A stretch of 64,000 nt of DNA from the IMG/VR virus record IMGVR_UViG_3300031853_000001, positions 64,001-128,000 of that record; one strand, written 5' to 3'. Below the pieces are notes generated by a model. The model had not been told where the DNA came from. It saw nothing but the letters and a program-made list of their open reading frames with translations, and ran no database searches. Made by a program: the position numbers and the translations under genes. The stretch's first letter is position 1, and every line of letters begins with the position of its first letter. This document shows, piece by piece, positions 2,589 through 63,487 of the stretch. Source of the DNA: a virus. Its lineage: Duplodnaviria > Caudoviricetes.

Positions 2589-3725
2589 ATGTATTTAACT
2601 AAATTTATGAATGAAAATCTCGATTGGCAGACTAAGCTCGTAGCTGCTCCGTATTTTCTGGAAATTCATTCTGATATTATTGAAGGCGTTGAATATTATA
2701 TTTTGAAATATAATATGATTATGTCTGATATGAGCTTGCCTGAGGTTCAAGAAGCTCGTGGTTCCATCTTTCGCAAGAACGAAGATGGCTATTGGATATG
2801 CGTATGCCATCCGTTTGACAAGTTCTTCAACTATGGAGAATCCCAGTCTGCGGTTAATCGCATTGATTGGTCTACTGCTTCTGTTCAGCAGAAGGTGGAT
2901 GGAAGTCTTATCAAATTTTGGTATGGCAATGATGGTTGGGTGGTCTCTACAAATGGAACAATAGATGCTTACAAAGCAGAGTGCGGCGATACCACCTATG
3001 GCGCGTTGGTAGAGCAGGTTATTGACCGTATTCCTAATTTTTTCAAGATGTTAGACCGCGACTATACTTATATGTTTGAACTAACTTCTCCTTTTAATCG
3101 TATTGTTATACATTATGAAGGGGTTAATTTGTGGTATCTTGGTCGACGCAACATTTCAAATCATATTGAAGACAATGAACCCTTGATGATTAGCGGCATA
3201 CTTCATCCCGAAATATACCTCCATCACTCTCTTTCTGAATGTATTGCGGCCGCACACGAAATGGGCGATGATGAAGAGGGATATGTAGTGTGTGATGCGA
3301 ACTTCAACCGTATTAAAATTAAAGGTGATGAGTATTTACGCCTGCATAAAATGCGTGGCAATGGGCCGCTAAATATCACCCAAGTAATAGAAATGTATCA
3401 GAATGATTCTCTTGATGACTTTATCGCCTACTACCCCGAGTTTAAGTCTTTCGTAGATGAAGTTATTGGACAACTGCGACATTTAATTGATATTGCTGAT
3501 ATTGCTTTTTCTGCTATAATGTCACATTCTCCCGCTACTCGTGCGGATTTCGCACAGTATGCTTGCACTTATATCGGACCGTTAAAGTCTTTCTTGTTCG
3601 CACGACTGGATAACAAGGTTGCAAATGCTACCGAATTTTATAAGGAGATGCGCGCGAAGAGTCTTTCCGCGCACCTTCAAACCATTTTAACTCATAAAGA
3701 AATTGGGATTATGGAGGACGATTAA
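2589..3725 (+). CDS. T4 Rnl1-like RNA ligase
   Basis: KFFNYGE, motif I KVDGSL, FEL, EEGYVV, RIKIK. Confidence 0.9.
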   Translation: MYLTKFMNENLDWQTKLVAAPYFLEIHSDIIEGVEYYILKYNMIMSDMSLPEVQEARGSIFRKNEDGYWICVCHPFDKFFNYGESQSAVNRIDWSTASVQQKVDGSLIKFWYGNDGWVVSTNGTIDAYKAECGDTTYGALVEQVIDRIPNFFKMLDRDYTYMFELTSPFNRIVIHYEGVNLWYLGRRNISNHIEDNEPLMISGILHPEIYLHHSLSECIAAAHEMGDDEEGYVVCDANFNRIKIKGDEYLRLHKMRGNGPLNITQVIEMYQNDSLDDFIAYYPEFKSFVDEVIGQLRHLIDIADIAFSAIMSHSPATRADFAQYACTYIGPLKSFLFARLDNKVANATEFYKEMRAKSLSAHLQTILTHKEIGIMEDD

Positions 3726-3728
3726 AGT

Positions 3729-4389
3729 ATGTATGATTATCTTAAAGAATTAGAACAAGAACATAAAGCAGAACTTCTTCAACTAAAAATGCAATGGGAA
3801 GCTATGAAACTTCAAGTTGAGTCAGAGAAGGATAAAAATCCTAAGATGGGCGAAAAACTTGATGCTTACTTAAATATGCTGAAGAATAGTATTAAAGAAT
3901 TGCTATCGAGTAGCGAAGATTGGGATGAAGATTCATTAGCTGACTATAATTATATTTTTGGTGAAGAGAATGAAGATTAAAGAAAAGTTAATTCACTTTC
4001 TTGGCGGCTTAACCCAAGATGAGCACAATGAAGATGTTAATTCTTTAACTAAGGCACATGAAGTTATTTTAGCTAAACTAAATGAAAAAGAAGAACGGCT
4101 TCAAAGAAACTTAAATGCTCTTGAATGGGCAATAGAAGATAGTCGTATGACTGGCAGGATAAATGTGGTTAGAACTGAAAAGCCTATCCATACTATTAAA
4201 ACAGAAAATATTATTCTTGAAGAAGCCTATGAATTTCATCCAGAAGATGAAATTATTGAGCGCGCGAAACAGTATATAGGCGAACAATTATTTCATACGT
4301 TAATGGAAAGTAAGTTAATTGATTTTAAAATGTCTGATGATTTCGGAAAAAAGAAATTAACTGGAACAATTTATGTGAGGGAACCATAA
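3729..4389 (+). other. two hypothetical coiled-coil CDSs (3729-3980, 3958-4389)
   Basis: translationally coupled ORFs, no motif. Confidence 0.55.
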
Positions 4390-7914: not shown

Positions 7915-9625
7915 ATGTCATTATTTAAGAAAAAATCCACACCAGCGCTACATCTTTTACTTAGTGAAGAACTTTCTCGCGCGAAAACAAAAGAGCAGCA
8001 TCATTTTTATTATGCTCTTTATGATAATGAGCGCGATTTAGCGCAGAAATGGTGTAATAAAAATAAAGTATATATGGAAGTAGACCATCAAACGAATGGT
8101 AATATTTTCTATAAGTTTATATTCTAATGGCTCAAACAGTTTTTGTTGTAGATTTATATGACAAATTTTCTCTTGACCACATTATTTCTAAACATAGAAT
8201 AAATGGCCGATGGTGGGCTATAAAAGAAGTACATTTAGAATGGGGAATCCCTCAATTATCTAAAATTGAGGATGGAAGTCCTATGCCATTTCGTTTATAT
8301 GAAACTATTGAAGAGGCCGAAGATTATATTAAGAAAATAAAAAGATTTGAAGGAGTTAGTTTTTAATGGATTTAAATGTATTCAAATGGTCTTTTAGACC
8401 CCGCTATTATTTAACTCATCCTTGGAAATGGATAAAAGAATTATTCAATAATATTCGCGCGGCATGGATGCGCGCGACTAAGGGCTATTGTTACTCTGAT
8501 TGTTGGAATTTTAATAGTTACTTTTGCGCGGTTGTTCCTCTTATTTTACGTCATATGGCAGATTATGGGATGGGTTATCCTGGTGGGGAACCATTTGATA
8601 CAAAAGAAAAATGGGAAACTTGGCTCCATGAAATGGCCAATAAAATTGAGCGTTTAGACTATGACGATTGGATGGAAGATTTAAACGAATATAGTAAAGA
8701 TTATGAAAAAACCTTTGAAGATGATTTTTATAAAGAAAAGCATCCAAATGGGCCATTTATAACAACTACTTATGATTCTTCTTTAAGCAAAGAAGAAATT
8801 CGTAAGAAATATTACGAACGTTGTGTAGAAATACATAAAATACGGCCACAAGTATTAGAAGATTTTGGAAAGTCCTTCTTTAAATTTTTTGATTGTCTCT
8901 GGGACTGATTTTATAAAAGAGGGAAAAATAATGTATTTTGGGACTAATATAAAGGAGGTATAATTATGGCACAAGCTTATTCAAGACACGTTTGGAGTTC
9001 TAATGAACTAATTACTGAAGCTAAATTAAATCATATTGAGGAAGGTATAGCTAATGCTGACTCTAAAGCCACGGAACAAATTGCTAGTATTATCGAGAAT
9101 AAAGACTTTATAAATGAAAAAGTTGGAGAAATGATTACTAACTTGGGTTTTTCAGTTAATGCGGAAAATCAAACTTTAAATATAGGAATAACGGGAACTT
9201 AATTTAATAGTTGACTTTTTTCTAAAATTTTGTTATAATAAATATAGAAAAGAGAGAGAGAAGATTTTAATATGTTTAAGTATTGTTATGTTTGCGGGAA
9301 AATTATTCCAAATAATGCTCCCTATTATAAGATTGGTGAGAATAGTTATACTTGTCTAAATAATGAATGTTTTAACTTTTATTACTGGGATAATTTAGCG
9401 ACTAAAATGGTTGATAATAAAAATCATGAGTATGCTATTATCAATCAAAAAGTTTATCAAATTGGTAGTGAGAATGATGAACCACGAGGTTTTGGTGGAC
9501 AATCTTGGACTATTCAATTTAATGATGGAGTTATAATAAATACTAATTCTCTTTGGTATCGAGGAGAATTGCCCGGACGATTGCGACATGATTTTAAGGA
9601 TAACGCAAAATTTATAATGCATTAG
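7915..9625 (+). other. cluster of small hypothetical CDSs (7915-8127, 8127-8366, 8366-8908, 8966-9202, 9272-9625)
   Basis: coupled ORFs; 8966-9202 has the W...ITEAKLNHIEEGI motif seen at N-termini of phage structural proteins. Confidence 0.55.
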
Positions 9626-40941: not shown

Positions 40942-41017
40942 GCCGTCATAACTCAATTGGTAGAGTAGCACATTAGTAATGTGCAGGTTTTCAGTTCAAG
41001 TCTGAATGGCGGCTCCA
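40942..41017 (+). tRNA. tRNA-Thr(AGT)
   Basis: full cloverleaf, gcaca-ttagtaa-tgtgc, CCA. Confidence 0.9.
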
Positions 41018-41579: not shown

Positions 41580-41682
41580 TAGGCACAAACAGCAATTTTC
41601 TTTATTTAAGTATTGAGAAATTGTAGTATGTTGAACGGTCAAATATTAGAAACCATAGCTATTAAGCAAAACGAGTGCCTAG
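41580..41682 (+). ncRNA. ACAGCAA-scaffold RNA #1
   Basis: taggcac-aaACAGCAA...gtgccta-g; cargo AU-rich hairpins. Confidence 0.7.
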
Positions 41683-41897: not shown

Positions 41898-41903
41898 TTT
41901 ATA

Positions 41904-42031
41904 TAGTCGCTCACAGCAATCGTTCTTTATAGAACATATGGGTTCGAATCCCATACCACGCACCAAATCGCGTAGTTAGCCAAATGGTTTAGGCAGATGT
42001 CTAACAAACATCCTTCTATTAAAGCGACTAG
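41904..42031 (+). ncRNA. ACAGCAA-scaffold RNA #2 with circularly permuted tRNA (anticodon AAC, Val)
   Basis: tagtcgct-cACAGCAA...agcgacta-g enclosing T arm, 3' acceptor, ACCA, linker, 5' acceptor, D arm, anticodon arm. Confidence 0.85.
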
Positions 42032-42385: not shown

Positions 42386-42464
42386 GGACCGATAGCAGAA
42401 TTGGCATATGCACTGGTTTAAGGTACCAGGTTAAGTGTGGGTTCAAATCCCACTCGGTCTACCA
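42386..42464 (+). tRNA. tRNA-Leu(AAG), short variable region
   Basis: ctggt-ttaaggt-accag, CCA. Confidence 0.85.
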
Positions 42465-42468
42465 AATT

Positions 42469-42540
42469 GCCGTATTAGTTCAACGGTAGAATAATAGATT
42501 CGTAATCTAGATGCTTGTTCAAATCAAGTATGCGGCTCCA
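42469..42540 (+). tRNA. tRNA-Thr(CGT)
   Basis: gccgtat/atgcggc, loop ttcgtaa, very short variable loop, CCA. Confidence 0.8.
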
Positions 42541-50060: not shown

Positions 50061-50136
50061 AATTCTGCTATAATAATATTGTAAAAAAGAAAAGCCCTAG
50101 TCCAGGGCTGACCAAATGAAAAGGAGATTTAAAATT

Positions 50137-51756
50137 ATGACTAATTTCAATCAGGTAGTTTCTAATTTTGTTGCTTCTCAGAATTCTTACCCTGTTCGTA
50201 AGAATATTAGCAAGGCTCACGCTTCTTCCTTTATCAATGCGATGAAGCAAGAGGATAACTTCAAGTATACCGAAAATGGTGCGGTAGCCAAGAAGTCTAC
50301 TATGTCCAAGCTATACGACCTATTTGCACTTGGCGGCTCCTATCGTTCTCGCACCGAGAGCGATTGTATCGTTCTTTTTAAGAACGCATATCAGGAGAAC
50401 CCTGCCTATGCTCTAAAGTGCCTATGGTATCTTCGTGATATTCTTGAGGGTCAGGGTGAGCGTCGTTTCTTCCGTGTTTGCTTAAAGTGGCTTGCTACCT
50501 ACGACAAGCAGGCTGTACTACGCAACCTTGATACCATTGCCCGTGATGGTTTCGGCCGCTGGGATGATCTGTTTGTCCTATTTGACACTCCTTGCGAGGA
50601 TGCTGTTATGAAGCTGATTGAAAATCAGCTAGTTAGCGACCTAAAGGCGTATCAGGCCGGTGCCGCAGTATCTCTACTTGGCAAGTGGATTCCTTCCGAG
50701 AACTCCTCTTCTGCCAAGACTAAGCATAATGCTCGTCGCATTATTGCTGCTCTTCACGTATCTCCTCGTGAGTATCGTAAGACTCTATCTGCTCTGCGTG
50801 AGCGTATCCACGTTGTAGAGCGTCTTATGTCCCAGAACCGTTGGGACGAGATTGATTTCTCTCATCTACCTTCTCGTGCTGGCCTGATCTATCGCAAGGC
50901 TTTCGAGCGTCGCGATATGATTCAGCAGAAGTATCGTGAGTTCGCGAAGGATACTTCTACCAAGGTAAATGCTGGTAAGCTATATCCTTACGACGTTGTG
51001 CGTGAGGCACAGAAGGTTATGCACTGTGATTCCTACTGGAATTATGGTTCTCGCGAACCTCGCCTAGACGACACCCAGCGTCTAATGGTTAATAAGTATT
51101 GGGATAACCTACGTAATGTTTTCCCTGCGGGTGAAAACTTTAACGCTATGGTTGTTTGCGATACTTCTAGCTCTATGCTAAATGGAGCAAGCAATACTGC
51201 TTCTCCTATGCAGGTTGCGGTATCTCTGGCAATGTATGCCGCAGAGCGTGCCAACGGTCCTTTCAAGAACCATTATATCAGTTTCAGCCGTCAGGCTCGT
51301 CTGGTAGAGGTTTTTGGTGCGGACTTCTGCGACAAGGTATCTCGTATCATCCGCTCCAATGTGTGCGAGAATACCAATCTTGAAAGTGTTTTCGACCTAG
51401 TGCTAAATACTGCTATGCAGTATCGCCTACCTCGTAACGCTATGCCTAAGACTCTTGTAGTCGTGTCCGATATGGAAGTAGATCGTTCTGCGGGTATTTC
51501 CAGTCATAAGGAAACCTTTATGGAGTCTATGCGTCGTAAGTGGGCTCAGAAGTGCGGCAACCGCTATGAGTTCCCTGACGTAGTGTTCTGGAATGTGTCT
51601 GCTCGCAACGATACTTTCCTAGACGATCCTAAGAGTGGCATTACTTACGTGTCTGGCTGCAGTCCTGTACTGTTTGAGCAGATTCTGTCTGGTAAGACGT
51701 CTATTGACCTTATGCTAGACAAGCTTAACGCTCCTCGCTACAAAGACATCTACTAA
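50137..51756 (+). CDS. DUF2828-family protein (TROVE/Ro60-like helical domain + vWA)
   Basis: TENGA...ST...DLF, LRD...GQGER, GRWDDL, SL..KW.P, MIDAS-like DTSSSM, TNL..VF, SDME, FWNV, VSG.SP; own promoter (50046) and terminator. Confidence 0.85.
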   Translation: MTNFNQVVSNFVASQNSYPVRKNISKAHASSFINAMKQEDNFKYTENGAVAKKSTMSKLYDLFALGGSYRSRTESDCIVLFKNAYQENPAYALKCLWYLRDILEGQGERRFFRVCLKWLATYDKQAVLRNLDTIARDGFGRWDDLFVLFDTPCEDAVMKLIENQLVSDLKAYQAGAAVSLLGKWIPSENSSSAKTKHNARRIIAALHVSPREYRKTLSALRERIHVVERLMSQNRWDEIDFSHLPSRAGLIYRKAFERRDMIQQKYREFAKDTSTKVNAGKLYPYDVVREAQKVMHCDSYWNYGSREPRLDDTQRLMVNKYWDNLRNVFPAGENFNAMVVCDTSSSMLNGASNTASPMQVAVSLAMYAAERANGPFKNHYISFSRQARLVEVFGADFCDKVSRIIRSNVCENTNLESVFDLVLNTAMQYRLPRNAMPKTLVVVSDMEVDRSAGISSHKETFMESMRRKWAQKCGNRYEFPDVVFWNVSARNDTFLDDPKSGITYVSGCSPVLFEQILSGKTSIDLMLDKLNAPRYKDIY

Positions 51757-52667: not shown

Positions 52668-53318
52668 ATGCGTAAGTACGAAAAAATTGAAACTCTATTT
52701 GCCCGCGATATGGAAGGCACTAAAAAGCTAATGCCGGGTATTTTTCGTGACCCGACTATTGAGTTTCTTCAGTATTGTGATTGGGTATGGACTGAGAAGA
52801 TAGACGGCACTAATATCCGCGTGTATTGGGATGGCCATAAGGTTACTTTTAGTGGCCGTACCGATAACGCAGTTATTCCCGCAGAACTTATCACTCGTCT
52901 AAATGAACTTTTTAGCGGTGAGACTAATGCTCAAATTTTTGAGCAGGCTTTTGGCGATAAGGAAGTTATTCTATTCGGTGAGGGCTATGGTCGTAAAATT
53001 CAGAAGGGCGGTGGCAAGTATATTGCCGATGGCGTTGATTTTATTCTATTTGACGTTCTAATTGGTGAGAATTATCAAGAACGTGAATGGGTTGAAAGCA
53101 CCGCCAAGATGTTTGGTATTAAGGTCGTCCCAATTGTGGGTGGCGGTTCGCTTGAAGACGCTGTAAATTATGTTAAGAAGCACCCTAATTCGATAATTGC
53201 GGAAGATGTACGAGAAATGGAAGGTATTGTATGTAGACCCGCTGTTGAGCTACGTGACCGTCGTGGTAATCGTATTATTGTAAAAATTAAGTGGGAAGAT
53301 ATAAAGGAGCTTATTTAA
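52668..53318 (+). CDS. Rnl2-like RNA ligase
   Basis: motif I EKIDGTN, LFGEGYG, FDV, EGIV, KIK. Confidence 0.85.
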   Translation: MRKYEKIETLFARDMEGTKKLMPGIFRDPTIEFLQYCDWVWTEKIDGTNIRVYWDGHKVTFSGRTDNAVIPAELITRLNELFSGETNAQIFEQAFGDKEVILFGEGYGRKIQKGGGKYIADGVDFILFDVLIGENYQEREWVESTAKMFGIKVVPIVGGGSLEDAVNYVKKHPNSIIAEDVREMEGIVCRPAVELRDRRGNRIIVKIKWEDIKELI

Positions 53319-53663: not shown

Positions 53664-54640
53664 CTCAGCGCAAAAGGAGAGCAAGCTGTTACTCCGAGTG
53701 AACTTATCGGCGCTATATAAATAGGAAAAACCAATTAAATACAGTATTTTAAATGAAGTAATAACTGCCATAGAAGTCATGACCTATGATAGAAGACACT
53801 TCATTTAAAGCAACCGGTTGATTTGCGCAATTAAGTCGTTAGAAGCGACTAGAGGGAGAGACCCTGACTAATAAGCAAGTCCATTCTATGAAATGGTAAT
53901 GTCGAAAACCAATTAGTGTAAAGTAGCATACCTTACCAATAATAAGGAGAATCAGCGTAGCGAACTGAATTGGCGTACTGGAATTTGTTGTCCAGAGTAG
54001 GCATAAATCGAGCAGCAATGCGGTAATACCCGTGCACAGGTAGCTAAATTACCCTGGCTCACCAATTATTTTAGAAGATAAGACTTGAGCTTATCTCTGG
54101 CTATGAAGCGAGTGCCGTGCCGCAGATGCGGTGCTTAGTGGAGCCTATGTGGGTTTAGCGTGTCAACCACAATGCGGATAGGTATTAACCGAAAGAAAAC
54201 ACGCTTTAATGGCGCTTTATCCCAAGCCTTTTCGCGGCGGCGCTATAAGTACCAAAAGGTATTATTTAATACTGAGCGTGAAACTAAGAGGGAACTGAAG
54301 GCTGTGCCAAGGTGAAAGGCTAACAGTCCGAGTGATGACCGTTGAAGCCATTCGGTGCATAGTGGTGCCGTTAAAGCGATGGATGCATACATCGTCCACT
54401 TCATTTAATGACTTGATGCTTATCAAGCTAGAACTATCGAGGACGTGTGCGGTGGGAATGTTTGAGATTAGATGTAGATAGTTTAAGTATAGACTTGCGG
54501 TGCAAGCCTAATCAACTGGCGTTCCGCGGCCAGAATACTTTGCGGGCTTTATTGATTCGGGAGGAAGTGTCCGTAGATGAACTTCTCGGAGTAATCGCCA
54601 TAATCGAATCAGCCGTGCGGCTGGCATAATGCCGCAATAT
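53664..54640 (+). ncRNA. about 1-kb structured non-coding region with embedded tRNA-like domains
   Basis: no credible ORF; many hairpins; cloverleaf-like 53907-53975 (loop ccaataa) and ACCA-ending unit 54010-54064. Confidence 0.55.
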
Positions 54641-54760
54641 GGCACCGTAGTGCAAAGGTAAGCACGCCGGCCTTTGTGAGATAGGGTAAAGTGCAGTTCA
54701 ACTCTGCCGTCTCGCACCACAAGCCGGTGATGCTGGGTTCAAGTCCCGCCGGTGCTTCCA
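54641..54760 (+). tRNA. tRNA-Glu(TTC) interrupted by 44-nt mini-tRNA insert (54676-54719)
   Basis: removing the insert gives ccggc-cttt|caa-gccgg; CCA. Confidence 0.85.
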
Positions 54761-58311: not shown

Positions 58312-58379
58312 AGGCGGACACAGCAAATAACTATTTAAGCAATAATCTTTTAAATTATGTAGCTAAAATAACCGCCTAG
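58312..58379 (+). ncRNA. ACAGCAA-scaffold RNA #4 carrying a Lys(UUU) anticodon stem-loop
   Basis: aggcgg-acACAGCAA...ataat-cttttaa-attat...ccgcct-ag. Confidence 0.75.
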
Positions 58380-59117: not shown

Positions 59118-59693
59118 ATACTCCATTTAATAAAATGGTTGAACCAAGTGAAGAAGAGTTAACCACTCTGCTTGGGCTATCTAAATAACAGCCATACGAT
59201 TTAGCGGGATACTACTAAATCGCGGCCACGAAATCAGTAATGATTAGTGATAAGGAGAAACTCTTAATGTTAAGGATAGGCGCTTGGTTATTCGCTAACA
59301 AAAACTTGGCTCCTTGCGGCGTCGTAATAGAAAGCAGATTGAGCAGATTTGCCGAACCCAGAAAAGACTTTAAGGTGGCAGTTAAAGGGACTCTGGGAAA
59401 GCCATAAGACGTTTGGTGTCGTTGAAACCTAGAAATAGGATATAAGCAAGGTTCACAGATAAAGTAGCCTAAAACGACAATGATTCTAATAAGTAATTTA
59501 ATTAGAATAATGTGCTGAATGGTTTAGGTGAAATTTGGGAGTAATCAGTCTCCCCGTTGCTAGCCAAAAGGCAGGATGAAGAAGTTAAAGGGTCGCTACC
59601 TTTGGCTCAGCCTTCATCTTCAACGTGGTTGAATATGTTAGAAGGATAATACAAGTACGGCGAAGGTCGCAACGGTTTTATTAAATGGGGTAT
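59118..59693 (+). ncRNA. 576-nt large structured RNA, ROOL-like
   Basis: 23-bp terminal stem atactccatttaataaaatggtt/aacggttttattaaatggggtat; size and tRNA-cluster context fit ROOL; family not verified. Confidence 0.6.
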
Positions 59694-61464: not shown

Positions 61465-61538
61465 AGTCCGTTAGTTTAACAGTAAAATATAACCCTGTCA
61501 CGGTTAAGTTACGAGGGCAGCACTCGTACGGACTGCCA
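61465..61538 (+). tRNA. tRNA-Asp(GTC)
   Basis: taacc-ctgtcac-ggtta, G73, CCA; atypical T loop ggcagca. Confidence 0.85.
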
Positions 61539-61657
61539 TAGACTCAAACAGCAATATTTTACTTGCATGTGGGGCCGGAAGTATTGGTTTAACTCCAGTT
61601 CTCTCCACCACATGGAGAGATAGTGTAACGATAGCACGCCGTATAGTATGAGTCTAG
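61539..61657 (+). ncRNA. ACAGCAA-scaffold RNA #5 with circularly permuted tRNA (GTG, His-like)
   Basis: tagactc-aaACAGCAA...gagtcta-g enclosing gc-atgtggg-gccgg, T arm, tctctcc-ACCA, linker, ggagaga, D arm, ccg. Confidence 0.82.
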
Positions 61658-62666: not shown

Positions 62667-62733
62667 AAGGCACAAGCAGCAACAAGACGTTTTAATAATT
62701 TGATAGTGGATTAAATTTATTGAGTGTGCCTTG
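62667..62733 (+). ncRNA. ACAGCAA-scaffold RNA #7 (GCAGCAA)
   Basis: aaggcaca-aGCAGCAA...tgtgcctt-g; inner hairpin loop tagtgga. Confidence 0.65.
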
Positions 62734-63289: not shown

Positions 63290-63409
63290 TATGCGGTCAC
63301 AGCAATTTTAGATTTAATCTAAGTGTCATCGGTTCGATTCCGATTATTCCAGCCATTTAATTTGGAGTGTAGCTCAATTGGTAGAGCATTAGAATTATAA
63401 ACCGCATAG
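63290..63409 (+). ncRNA. ACAGCAA-scaffold RNA #8 with circularly permuted tRNA (Lys/Asn-like)
   Basis: tatgcggt-cACAGCAA...accgcata-g enclosing tctaa, T arm, tattcca-GCCA, linker, tggagtg, D arm, ttaga. Confidence 0.85.
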
Positions 63410-63420
63410 TACGATATTTA

Positions 63421-63487
63421 AGACGCTTACAGCAATTTAATACAGTCGCACACATAAATAATTACATGACTAAGTAATAGAGCGTCG
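63421..63487 (+). ncRNA. ACAGCAA-scaffold RNA #9
   Basis: gacgct-tACAGCAA...agcgtc. Confidence 0.65.

What the first reader, a model, noticed from the sequence alone, without database searches (positions are those of the whole stretch)
41904..42031. Circularly permuted tRNA (AAC) opened in the variable arm
Seen order: T arm (atggg-ttcgaat-cccat), 3' acceptor accacgc, ACCA, 4-nt linker, 5' acceptor gcgtagt, D arm, intact anticodon arm gatgt-ctaacaa-acatc. The helix tagaa/ttcta replaces the variable arm and connects to the scaffold. Cutting the linker would give a two-piece tRNA with free CCA, like two-piece tmRNA. Permuted tRNA genes are established in some algae and archaea; I know of none in phages.
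Basis: partly seen in the sequence, partly recalled or inferred. Interest (0 to 1): 0.85.

Follow-up and report, generated by a model that had tools for sequence, protein, structure and literature searches.

The report
Inside-out tRNA mimic on Y-like RNA
This phage RNA gene really is a complete tRNA written inside-out, but it is most likely one of a family of small partner RNAs for a Ro60-shaped phage protein rather than a working tRNA gene, an arrangement related to bacterial Y RNAs and not yet described in print.

Summary
At 41904-42031 the order is T arm, 3' acceptor strand, ACCA, 4-nt linker, 5' acceptor strand, D arm, anticodon arm. ARAGORN calls the rotated sequence tRNA-Val(AAC); 0 of 5000 controls gave a tRNA call.

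It is not a stand-alone permuted tRNA gene.
- An 8-bp helix followed by ACAGCAA closes it. The same "handle" closes six other small RNAs in this phage's tRNA island.
- In 144 loci of other phages and bacteria chosen for a DUF2828/vWA gene, strict handles number 122 on that gene's strand and 0 on the other.
- The AlphaFold model of this phage's DUF2828/vWA protein matches Ro60/Rsr over its full length.

Ten orthologues of this element keep every helix: 97.5% of cells are paired and 17 of 28 pairs show compensatory changes. Their anticodons differ (six triplets). Eight of the ten have a short acceptor loop without CCA, including a close relative with the same AAC anticodon.

Best reading: a Y-RNA-like (YrlA-like) tRNA mimic. 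In this phage RNase P might nick it, as happens to M. smegmatis YrlA. A decoding two-piece tRNA is not excluded (about 10%).

Earlier notes of this scan describe the same handle family on other DNA. I tested the main points independently.

The parts
41903..41911 (+). Unpaired A (41903) plus the 5' strand of the 8-bp closing helix (41904-41911), the first half of the 'handle'
   Evidence: Pairs with 42023-42030. The outermost pair changes T-A to A-T in the related phage G001. In ten orthologues, 3 of the 7 pairs of the outer handle helix change on both sides. The base before the helix is A in 108 of 117 distinct handles.
41912..41920 (+). Single-stranded box CACAGCAAU, the family-defining ACAGCAA motif
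   Evidence: Invariant in all ten orthologues except one G for A. The same box follows the closing helix in six other RNAs of this window and in 117 distinct handles in all.
41922..41935 (+). Local hairpin in the position of a class II variable arm.
   Evidence: Chosen by the MFE fold and by RNAalifold, with both-sided changes in 3 of 5 pairs. Joining 42013 to 41921 gives an 89-nt class II tRNA that ARAGORN accepts.
41938..41954 (+). T arm with a canonical TTCGAAT loop
   Evidence: (partial Rfam tRNA match to model positions 46-63). Two of 5 pairs covary and all cells are paired.
41955..41976 (+). Acceptor stem closed on itself: 3' strand 41955-61, ACCA 41962-65, linker AATC 41966-69, 5' strand 41970-76
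   Evidence: Six of 7 pairs change on both sides among the orthologues. ACCA plus linker is present only here and in G001. The close relative L014 has a perfect 7-bp stem closed by a 3-nt loop.
41977..41995 (+). U8-A9, D arm (3-bp stem, loop with GG) and position 26
   Evidence: The third pair of the stem flips between G-C and C-G in 4 of 10 orthologues.
41996..42012 (+). Complete anticodon arm with a 7-nt loop; anticodon AAC at 42003-42005
   Evidence: Four of 5 stem pairs covary. The triplet differs among orthologues (AAC, AAT, GAT, TAA, GTT, GAA), while the flanking CT and AA of the loop are kept.
42013..42031 (+). Tail (42013-42022), 3' strand of the closing helix (42023-42030) and trailing unpaired G (42031)
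   Evidence: The base after the helix is G in 101 of 117 distinct handles.
50116..51756 (+). Gene for the presumed protein partner: DUF2828 + DUF7788 (vWA), 546 aa, Ro60-shaped
   Evidence: Pfam PF11443 and PF25043. PHROG 850 'RNA-binding protein', E 3e-120. AlphaFold model with pLDDT 80.9 and pTM 0.80. The top 12 Foldseek PDB matches are all Ro60/Rsr/TROVE, E down to 4e-9, TM up to 0.55.
52668..53318 (+). RNA ligase gene next to the Ro60-like gene (context for an RNA-repair role)
   Evidence: PHROG 548 'RNA ligase', E 1.4e-23.

Best explanation
The element is a small non-coding RNA of about 127-139 nt. It is probably released from the tRNA-island transcript when the flanking tRNA-Ser (ends 41897) and tRNA-Arg (starts 42037) are matured. 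It has two modules.

(1) A 'handle': an 8-bp closing helix flanked by an unpaired A and G, followed by single-stranded ACAGCAA. This is the conserved signature of a large RNA family. It is most likely the docking site for the phage's Ro60-shaped DUF2828/vWA protein.

(2) A 'cargo': a complete class II tRNA fold written inside-out. It is entered between the anticodon arm and the variable arm, and the acceptor stem is closed by a loop.

By analogy with YrlA-type Y RNAs, the tRNA mimic would present a tRNA surface on a Ro-like particle. That surface could engage RNase P, the CCA-adding enzyme, modification enzymes, or nucleases and ligases that act on tRNA, for tRNA quality control or repair during infection. 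In this phage and one close relative the acceptor loop holds ACCA plus a 4-nt linker. RNase P could therefore nick it 5' of G41970 and leave two pieces held together by the acceptor stem and the handle. That is possible here but is not a conserved property of the orthologues.

Shown here: the fold, its covariation, the shared handle, the strand-specific company of the handle with DUF2828 genes, and the Ro60 fold of the protein.
Inferred: binding of the RNA to that protein, nicking by RNase P, and the cellular role.
For: - Rotated sequence: it is called a full tRNA; controls gave none.
- Orthologues: ten were found with a covariance model at 88-142 bits. In them 97.5% of cells are paired, 17 of 28 pairs change on both sides, 0 of 500 shuffles reach this, and slid controls give 34-47% paired.
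- Handle in this genome: strict handles number 5 on the + strand and 0 on the - strand, plus two variants (F, G), all in the tRNA island.
- Handle elsewhere: strict handles number 97 versus 0 by strand in 64 viral loci chosen by the DUF2828 gene, and 25 versus 0 in 80 loci from bacterial genome bins.
- Cultured phages: four of four examined have handle RNAs within about 2.7 kb of the DUF2828 gene on its strand. These are a Felixounavirus, Listeria P100plus, Bacillus PK-3 and mycobacteriophage Enceladus. No tRNA gene is annotated in the 13.4-kb stretch of Enceladus that I examined.
- Partner protein: its model matches Ro60/Rsr. The phage has no canonical TROVE gene.
- Sibling element F (63291-63407): its tRNA-like part matches Rfam YrlA (E 4e-4, 30 bits, below the family's threshold).
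- Against a decoding role: there are six anticodon triplets, and eight of ten orthologues have a short acceptor loop without CCA, including L014 with the same AAC.
- Precedent: YrlA RNAs mimic tRNA, and M. smegmatis YrlA is cut by RNase P and gains CCA (PMC4201824).
Against: - No binding data exist for any DUF2828 protein.
- Here the gene lies 8.1 kb from the RNA, and co-orientation could partly reflect one-directional transcription of tRNA islands.
- The handle does not resemble the published Ro-binding motifs (GGUCCGA; GNCGAA with a following G).
- This element gives no Rfam YrlA match even at E 10.
- The covariation counts were made on an alignment fitted to the model.
- The encoded ACCA, the full anticodon loop, and an A34 anticodon matching the phage's commonest Val codon (GTT, 28.5 per 1000) look more like a real tRNA than a mimic needs to.
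Confidence: 0.7

Rival explanations
1. It is a working two-piece tRNA. RNase P cuts before G41970 and exonucleases trim the linker back to CCA. The two halves stay paired, are aminoacylated, and decode GUU (AUU in phage G001) on the ribosome. The handle projects where a class II variable arm is tolerated.
For: All tRNA arms and the conserved D- and T-loop bases are present, with A73 and an encoded CCA. ARAGORN finds no tRNA-Val gene in the phage. The phage's ordinary tRNAs also use A34 (Thr AGT, Leu AAG). GTT and ATT are its commonest Val and Ile codons. All three acceptor-hairpin cargoes in this genome (B, D, F) have NCCA plus a linker. RNase P cutting of a loop-closed tRNA mimic is documented for M. 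smegmatis YrlA (PMC4201824).
Against: The close relative L014 keeps the same AAC anticodon but closes a perfect acceptor stem with a 3-nt loop, and eight of ten orthologues lack CCA. The anticodon changes among relatives while the body stays class II-like, which does not fit valine identity. The same handle carries cargoes with no tRNA features.
Confidence: 0.1
2. It is a decoy or sponge for enzymes that target tRNA, such as host anticodon nucleases or other tRNA-directed defences. It would act on its own, with the handle serving only to stabilise or process the RNA.
For: The anticodon loop keeps tRNA-like flanks while the triplet varies between phages. The element sits in a tRNA island with an RNA ligase gene. 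Phage tRNAs and RNA repair genes are widely read as counter-measures to tRNA cleavage (PMC7824862).
Against: This does not explain why the handle follows the DUF2828 gene, including in a stretch of a temperate mycobacteriophage with no annotated tRNA gene. It also does not explain why many handle RNAs carry no anticodon-like loop.
Confidence: 0.12
3. It is a permuted tRNA gene of the algal or archaeal type. The ends paired in the outer helix are cut and ligated into a circle, and the linker is then removed to give a normal linear tRNA.
For: The gene order is the same (3' half, linker, 5' half), the ends pair in a helix, and the phage has an RNA ligase.
Against: There is no bulge-helix-bulge motif. 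Neither the splicing endonuclease (PF01974) nor RtcB is encoded in the phage. The outer helix with ACAGCAA is shared with non-tRNA cargoes. The acceptor loops lack CCA and are short in most orthologues.
Confidence: 0.03
4. It is a decaying relic of a rearranged tRNA gene with no function.
For: tRNA islands of this phage are full of mobile inserts and homing endonucleases.
Against: All six helices are kept by compensatory changes across phages whose DUF2828 proteins are only 46-50% identical.
Confidence: 0.03

Closest known systems
YrlA-type Y RNAs of bacteria and mycobacteriophages, bound by Ro60/Rsr (Chen et al. 2014, PMC4201824; Rfam RF02553)
   Same: A small RNA whose ends pair in a stem next to a short conserved single-stranded motif. 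It carries a tRNA-like module with T arm, D arm and a loop-closed acceptor stem, and it is encoded on the same strand as a Ro60-type gene. M. smegmatis YrlA has a 7-bp acceptor stem, is cut by RNase P and ends in CCA.
   Different: The motif is ACAGCAA, not GNCGAA with a following G. The partner is a DUF2828/DUF7788 protein that matches Ro60 only by fold, not by the TROVE profile. The cargo here keeps a whole anticodon arm and a variable arm. The fold is entered at position 44/45, not through the anticodon stem. CCA is encoded rather than added. There is no Rfam match for this element.
Circularly permuted tRNA genes of Cyanidioschyzon merolae and other algae, and of Thermofilum pendens (from my own knowledge: Soma et al. 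2007; Chan et al. 2011)
   Same: The 3' half lies upstream of the 5' half, joined by a short linker, and the rotated sequence is a full cloverleaf.
   Different: Those genes are processed through a bulge-helix-bulge cut and a circular intermediate by the splicing endonuclease and ligase, and their anticodons are conserved working ones. None of these features is found here.
Two-piece tmRNA from permuted ssrA genes (from my own knowledge)
   Same: A permuted gene order in which the CCA-ending acceptor piece comes first, with the pieces held together by base pairing.
   Different: tmRNA has no anticodon arm and carries a tag reading frame. ARAGORN, which searches for tmRNA, reports none in the window.
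Class I RNAs of dictyostelid amoebae (Kjellin et al. 2021, PMC7919456)
   Same: RNAs of about 60 nt with a short stem joining the 5' and 3' ends, an 11-nt conserved unpaired motif right after the 5' strand, and a variable remainder. The paper's conserved letters (T, C, C, A, A at positions 3, 6, 9, 10, 11) fit a motif ending in ACAGCAA. The motif as I recall it is from memory only; the text held does not print it.
   Different: They are eukaryotic, no tRNA-like cargo is described, the partner proteins reported are different, and any link to DUF2828 is untested.

Membership tests
Circularly permuted tRNA gene (algal/archaeal type) | 3' half upstream of 5' half, joined by a short linker; the rotated sequence is a canonical cloverleaf | tested here: met
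Circularly permuted tRNA gene (algal/archaeal type) | Precursor ends form a bulge-helix-bulge motif processed by the tRNA splicing endonuclease and a ligase through a circular intermediate | tested here: not met
   The outer helix is a plain 8-bp stem with an 18-nt/4-nt internal loop. No PF01974 or RtcB gene is in the phage.
Circularly permuted tRNA gene (algal/archaeal type) | A decoding gene: anticodon and a free or freeable CCA end conserved among orthologues | tested here: not met
   Six triplets among ten orthologues. Eight of ten acceptor loops are 3-6 nt without CCA.
Circularly permuted tRNA gene (algal/archaeal type) | The mature product is aminoacylated and used in translation | not testable with these tools
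   Needs charging assays
YrlA-type Y RNA (Rfam RF02553) | tRNA-like module with T arm, D arm and loop-closed acceptor stem inside a stem that joins the RNA ends | tested here: met
YrlA-type Y RNA (Rfam RF02553) | Score at or above the family's gathering threshold (69 bits) | tested here: not met
   No YrlA match to this element at E up to 10. Sibling F scores 30.4 bits.
YrlA-type Y RNA (Rfam RF02553) | 5' Ro-binding motif GNCGAA(N)G or GGUCCGA | tested here: not met
   ACAGCAA stands in that place (motif definition from PMC4201824)
YrlA-type Y RNA (Rfam RF02553) | Encoded near a Ro60 (TROVE) gene, on the same strand | tested here: inconclusive
   Same strand, 8.1 kb from a gene whose product has the Ro60 fold but does not match the TROVE profile. 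In other phages the distance is about 0.1-2.7 kb.
YrlA-type Y RNA (Rfam RF02553) | Bound by the Ro60 orthologue in cells | not testable with these tools
   Needs immunoprecipitation
ACAGCAA-handle RNAs (operational family, apparently unpublished) | A 6-10 bp closing helix starting (W)AGRC and ending GYCU(W), flanked by an unpaired A and G | tested here: met
   8 bp, flanked by A41903 and G42031. Position 4 is T instead of R, with its partner changed to match.
ACAGCAA-handle RNAs (operational family, apparently unpublished) | ACAGCAA(W) one to three bases after the 5' strand | tested here: met
   41912-41920
ACAGCAA-handle RNAs (operational family, apparently unpublished) | Same strand as, and in the neighbourhood of, a DUF2828/vWA gene | tested here: met
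Two-piece tmRNA | tRNA-like domain without an anticodon arm, plus a tag reading frame | tested here: not met
   An intact anticodon arm is present. ARAGORN reports no tmRNA.

The most novel reading that the evidence does not exclude
In this phage lineage RNase P opens the ACCA-linker loop. The result is a chargeable two-piece class II tRNA that stays tethered through its handle to a Ro60-like ring. It would then be either a real decoder of the phage's commonest valine codon, or a charged tRNA held on a repair particle.
Probability: 0.1. Interest if true: 0.9.

Novelty: new variant of a known kind. Interest (0 to 1): 0.62.

Why it matters
Ro60 and Y RNAs form a conserved RNA-surveillance particle whose bacterial and phage versions are poorly understood. 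This case shows a second, apparently unpublished kind of Ro-like particle. Its RNAs share a simple handle, and one of them carries an entire tRNA, anticodon arm and encoded CCA included. The partner gene occurs in about 700 cultured phage genomes. In all four that I examined, handle RNAs lie beside it: a Felix O1-like coliphage, Listeria P100plus, Bacillus PK-3 and a mycobacteriophage. The idea can therefore be tested at the bench at once. It also warns annotators that gaps in phage tRNA arrays can hide structured RNAs that tRNA finders miss.

Tried and rejected
No expression or end data could be obtained.
- Rfam: neither the gathering nor the E-value threshold gives a family for this element.
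- GenBank phages: a nucleotide search found only the neighbouring tRNA-Arg.
- PDB by sequence: a search with the DUF2828 protein found nothing; only the fold search did.
- Handle scan: my first scan (any 6-bp helix) was too permissive, with 527 versus 381 hits by strand. I replaced it with stricter end rules.
- MAFFT alignment: it misplaced gaps in the anticodon stem, so pairs were counted on the model-guided alignment instead.
- Literature: searches for 'permuted tRNA' with phage, for DUF2828, and for the motif string gave nothing relevant.
- Origin of the cargo: comparison of rotated orthologues with 867 tRNAs gave only weak, mostly Leu/Ser (class II) nearest matches. An origin from tRNA-Leu is not shown.
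- Rejected readings: tmRNA, the algal-type processing route and a relic.

Full report
**What is there.** The window is bases 64001-128000 of a 180,932-bp uncultured phage record with 34% G+C, judged complete. The finding lies in a 139-nt gap between tRNA-Ser (ends 41897) and tRNA-Arg (starts 42037), inside a long array of plus-strand tRNA genes. In order along the strand come the T arm, the 3' acceptor strand, ACCA, a 4-nt linker, the 5' acceptor strand, U8-A9, a D arm with a 3-bp stem, and a full anticodon arm with a 7-nt loop (anticodon AAC). An 8-bp helix (41904-11 with 42023-30) closes the whole. The strand folds well below shuffled controls (z = -4.25); so does the opposite strand, so fold energy alone does not identify the coding strand.

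ARAGORN sees nothing here in the native order. It calls the rotated sequence tRNA-Val(aac) with every arm, whichever loop is used to join the halves. None of 2000 shuffles and none of 3000 random genome windows rotated the same way gives a tRNA call.

**Where the fold is opened.** A local hairpin (41922-26 with 41931-35) competes for the same bases and lies exactly where a class II tRNA has its long variable arm. Joining 42013 directly to 41921 gives an 89-nt class II tRNA that ARAGORN accepts. The single-sequence fold and RNAalifold on ten orthologues both choose the local hairpin, with both-sided changes in 3 of its 5 pairs. By eye, the cross helix also stays possible in most or all of the ten orthologues, though only weakly in L050, so an alternative pairing cannot be dismissed. 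The more likely break is between the anticodon arm and an intact variable arm.

**The scaffold is a family signature.** A scan of the whole genome for T arm plus acceptor hairpin plus CCA found two more such elements: D (61539-61656) and F (63291-63407). All three begin with a helix strand followed by ACAGCAA. A search for that box found seven elements on the plus strand of the tRNA island: A 41580-41681, this one (B), C 58312-58377, D, E 62667-62732, F, and G 63422-63486. Several carry no tRNA-like part. Under strict end rules the genome has 5 handles on the plus strand and none on the minus strand. The tRNA-like part of F matches Rfam YrlA at E 4e-4 (30 bits, below the threshold of 69). This element gives no YrlA match.

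**The likely protein partner.** ORF 50116-51756, on the same strand, carries DUF2828 and DUF7788 (a vWA domain). It belongs to PHROG 850, 'RNA-binding protein'. An RNA ligase gene follows at 52668-53318. I built a 26-sequence alignment from related phages and an AlphaFold model from it, with pLDDT 80.9 and pTM 0.80. Its 12 best PDB matches are all Ro60, Rsr or TROVE structures aligned over the full length, with E down to 4e-9 and TM up to 0.55. They include the Ro60 of Thermus phage phiLo. The phage has no protein matching the TROVE profile, no RtcB and no tRNA splicing endonuclease.

**Do handle and gene travel together?**
- In 64 viral loci retrieved with the protein, strict handles number 97 on the gene's strand and 0 on the other. 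They occur in 41 of the 64 loci and comprise 78 distinct sequences.
- In 80 loci from bacterial genome bins the count is 25 to 0. These include three tandem handle RNAs about 1.1 kb downstream of the gene in a Mycolicibacterium genome.
- The protein has relatives in 698 cultured phage records. I examined four, and all four have handle RNAs within about 2.7 kb of the gene on its strand. They are Escherichia phage nataliec (Felixounavirus), Listeria phage P100plus, Bacillus phage PK-3 and Mycobacterium phage Enceladus.
- The 13.4-kb stretch of Enceladus that I examined has no annotated tRNA gene. There the link is to the gene, not to a tRNA array.
- Over 117 distinct handles, the base before the helix is A in 108 and the base after it is G in 101.

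**Orthologues of this element.** A covariance model built from six copies found ten distinct orthologues at 88-142 bits, well separated from other family members at 56 bits or less. On the model-guided alignment:
- 97.5% of cells form standard pairs.
- 17 of 28 pairs change on both sides.
- No shuffle of 500 reaches any measure, and sliding the partners drops pairing to 34-47%.
- The acceptor stem changes on both sides in 6 of 7 pairs, and the anticodon stem in 4 of 5.

The caveat is that the alignment was fitted to this structure. RNAalifold, predicting on its own, returns the same helices.

Two things are not conserved.
- The anticodon triplet is AAC here and in L014, AAT in G001, GAT in L039, L044 and L054, TAA in L040 and L050, GTT in L081 and GAA in L095. 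The loop's flanking bases are kept.
- ACCA plus a linker is present only here and in the 94%-identical G001. L014, whose Ro-like protein is 89% identical, keeps AAC but closes a perfect 7-bp acceptor stem with a 3-nt loop. The others have 3-6 nt loops without CCA.

Across all acceptor-hairpin cargoes of the family, roughly a third have NCCA directly after the stem. That is far above chance but not universal.

**Mechanism.** The best-supported reading is a Y-RNA-like particle RNA: the handle docks the Ro60-shaped protein, and the cargo displays a tRNA surface.

Published work on YrlA gives the precedent (PMC4201824). Those RNAs carry T and D arms and a closed acceptor stem, and tRNA enzymes modify them. 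M. smegmatis YrlA, the one with a 7-bp acceptor stem, is cut by RNase P in vitro and in vivo and gains CCA, and both halves remain with Rsr. Jumbo-phage surveys already note TROVE proteins with 'a tRNA-like partner' as part of RNA repair sets (PMC7824862).

In this phage the 7-bp stem, G+1 and ACCA make an RNase P nick at 41969/41970 plausible. I put it near 50%.

A decoding role is less likely, because the sealed L014 orthologue and the drifting anticodon show that the conserved function does not need a free CCA or a fixed codon. Some features still fit a tRNA:
- The phage has no ordinary tRNA-Val gene.
- It uses A34 in other tRNAs.
- GTT is its commonest valine codon.

I keep about 10% for a working two-piece tRNA.

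**Novelty.** The concept of a tRNA-mimicking Y RNA in bacteria and phages is published. I found no paper on three things:
- the ACAGCAA handle;
- its DUF2828 partner;
- a cargo that is a whole class II tRNA with anticodon arm and encoded CCA, entered at position 44/45.

Earlier notes of this scan describe the same handle family on other genomes, including a permuted tRNA-Leu(TAA) mimic. I had reached the same reading before consulting them, and I tested its main points myself.

Noticed in passing
window 41580-41681, 58312-58377, 61539-61656, 62667-62732, 63291-63407, 63422-63486: Six sibling RNAs with the same closing helix plus ACAGCAA box. D and F carry T arm, 7-bp acceptor hairpin with NCCA and linker, and D arm, but no anticodon arm. 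A, C, E and G carry cargo that is not tRNA-like.
   Followed up: partly
L153:8078-8911 (Escherichia phage nataliec), L152:5658-5924 (Listeria phage P100plus), L154:7458-7746 (Mycobacterium phage Enceladus), L155:3355-5935 (Bacillus phage PK-3): Unannotated handle RNAs lie in tandem beside the DUF2828 / 'Ro-like' / 'vWFA' gene of cultured, widely used phages. Two of them (nataliec 8787-8911, PK-3 3662-3788) carry a cargo with a T arm, acceptor hairpin and D arm.
   Followed up: partly
L134:6563-6838 (Mycolicibacterium sp. S2-37): Three tandem handle RNAs about 1.1 kb downstream of a DUF2828 gene on a 1.5-Mb bacterial scaffold. The third has a permuted tRNA-like cargo.
   Followed up: no
window 59120-59688 and 54098-54209: A full-length ROOL RNA (315 bits) and a drum RNA (70.8 bits) lie in the same tRNA island.
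   Followed up: no
window 40942-41017 and 42386-42464: Ordinary phage tRNAs with A34 anticodons (Thr AGT, Leu AAG) in addition to Arg ACG. This is unusual for bacterial systems and matches the phage's commonest ACT and CTT codons.
   Followed up: no
window 42469-42537, 54641-54757, 61465-61535: tRNA matches found by Rfam but missed by ARAGORN. The one at 54641-54757 is 117 nt long, so it holds an insert. Earlier notes of the scan read it as a tRNA-shaped intron.
   Followed up: no
L051:894-1020, L050:5238-5365, L052:6286-6420: A different cargo layout in related phages. An anticodon-like hairpin lies upstream of the T arm, and the fold is opened after the D arm, again with NCCA in the acceptor loop. 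One has a CTA (amber-reading) triplet.
   Followed up: no
L024:2997-3086, L028:4038-4128, L037:2340-2431, L053:5100-5192, L070:3304-3395: Handle RNAs in which the closing helix takes the place of the acceptor stem and the ACAGCAA box replaces the D arm, followed by an anticodon-like hairpin and a T arm. The triplet varies (GTA, GTT, GCG, GCA) between close relatives.
   Followed up: no
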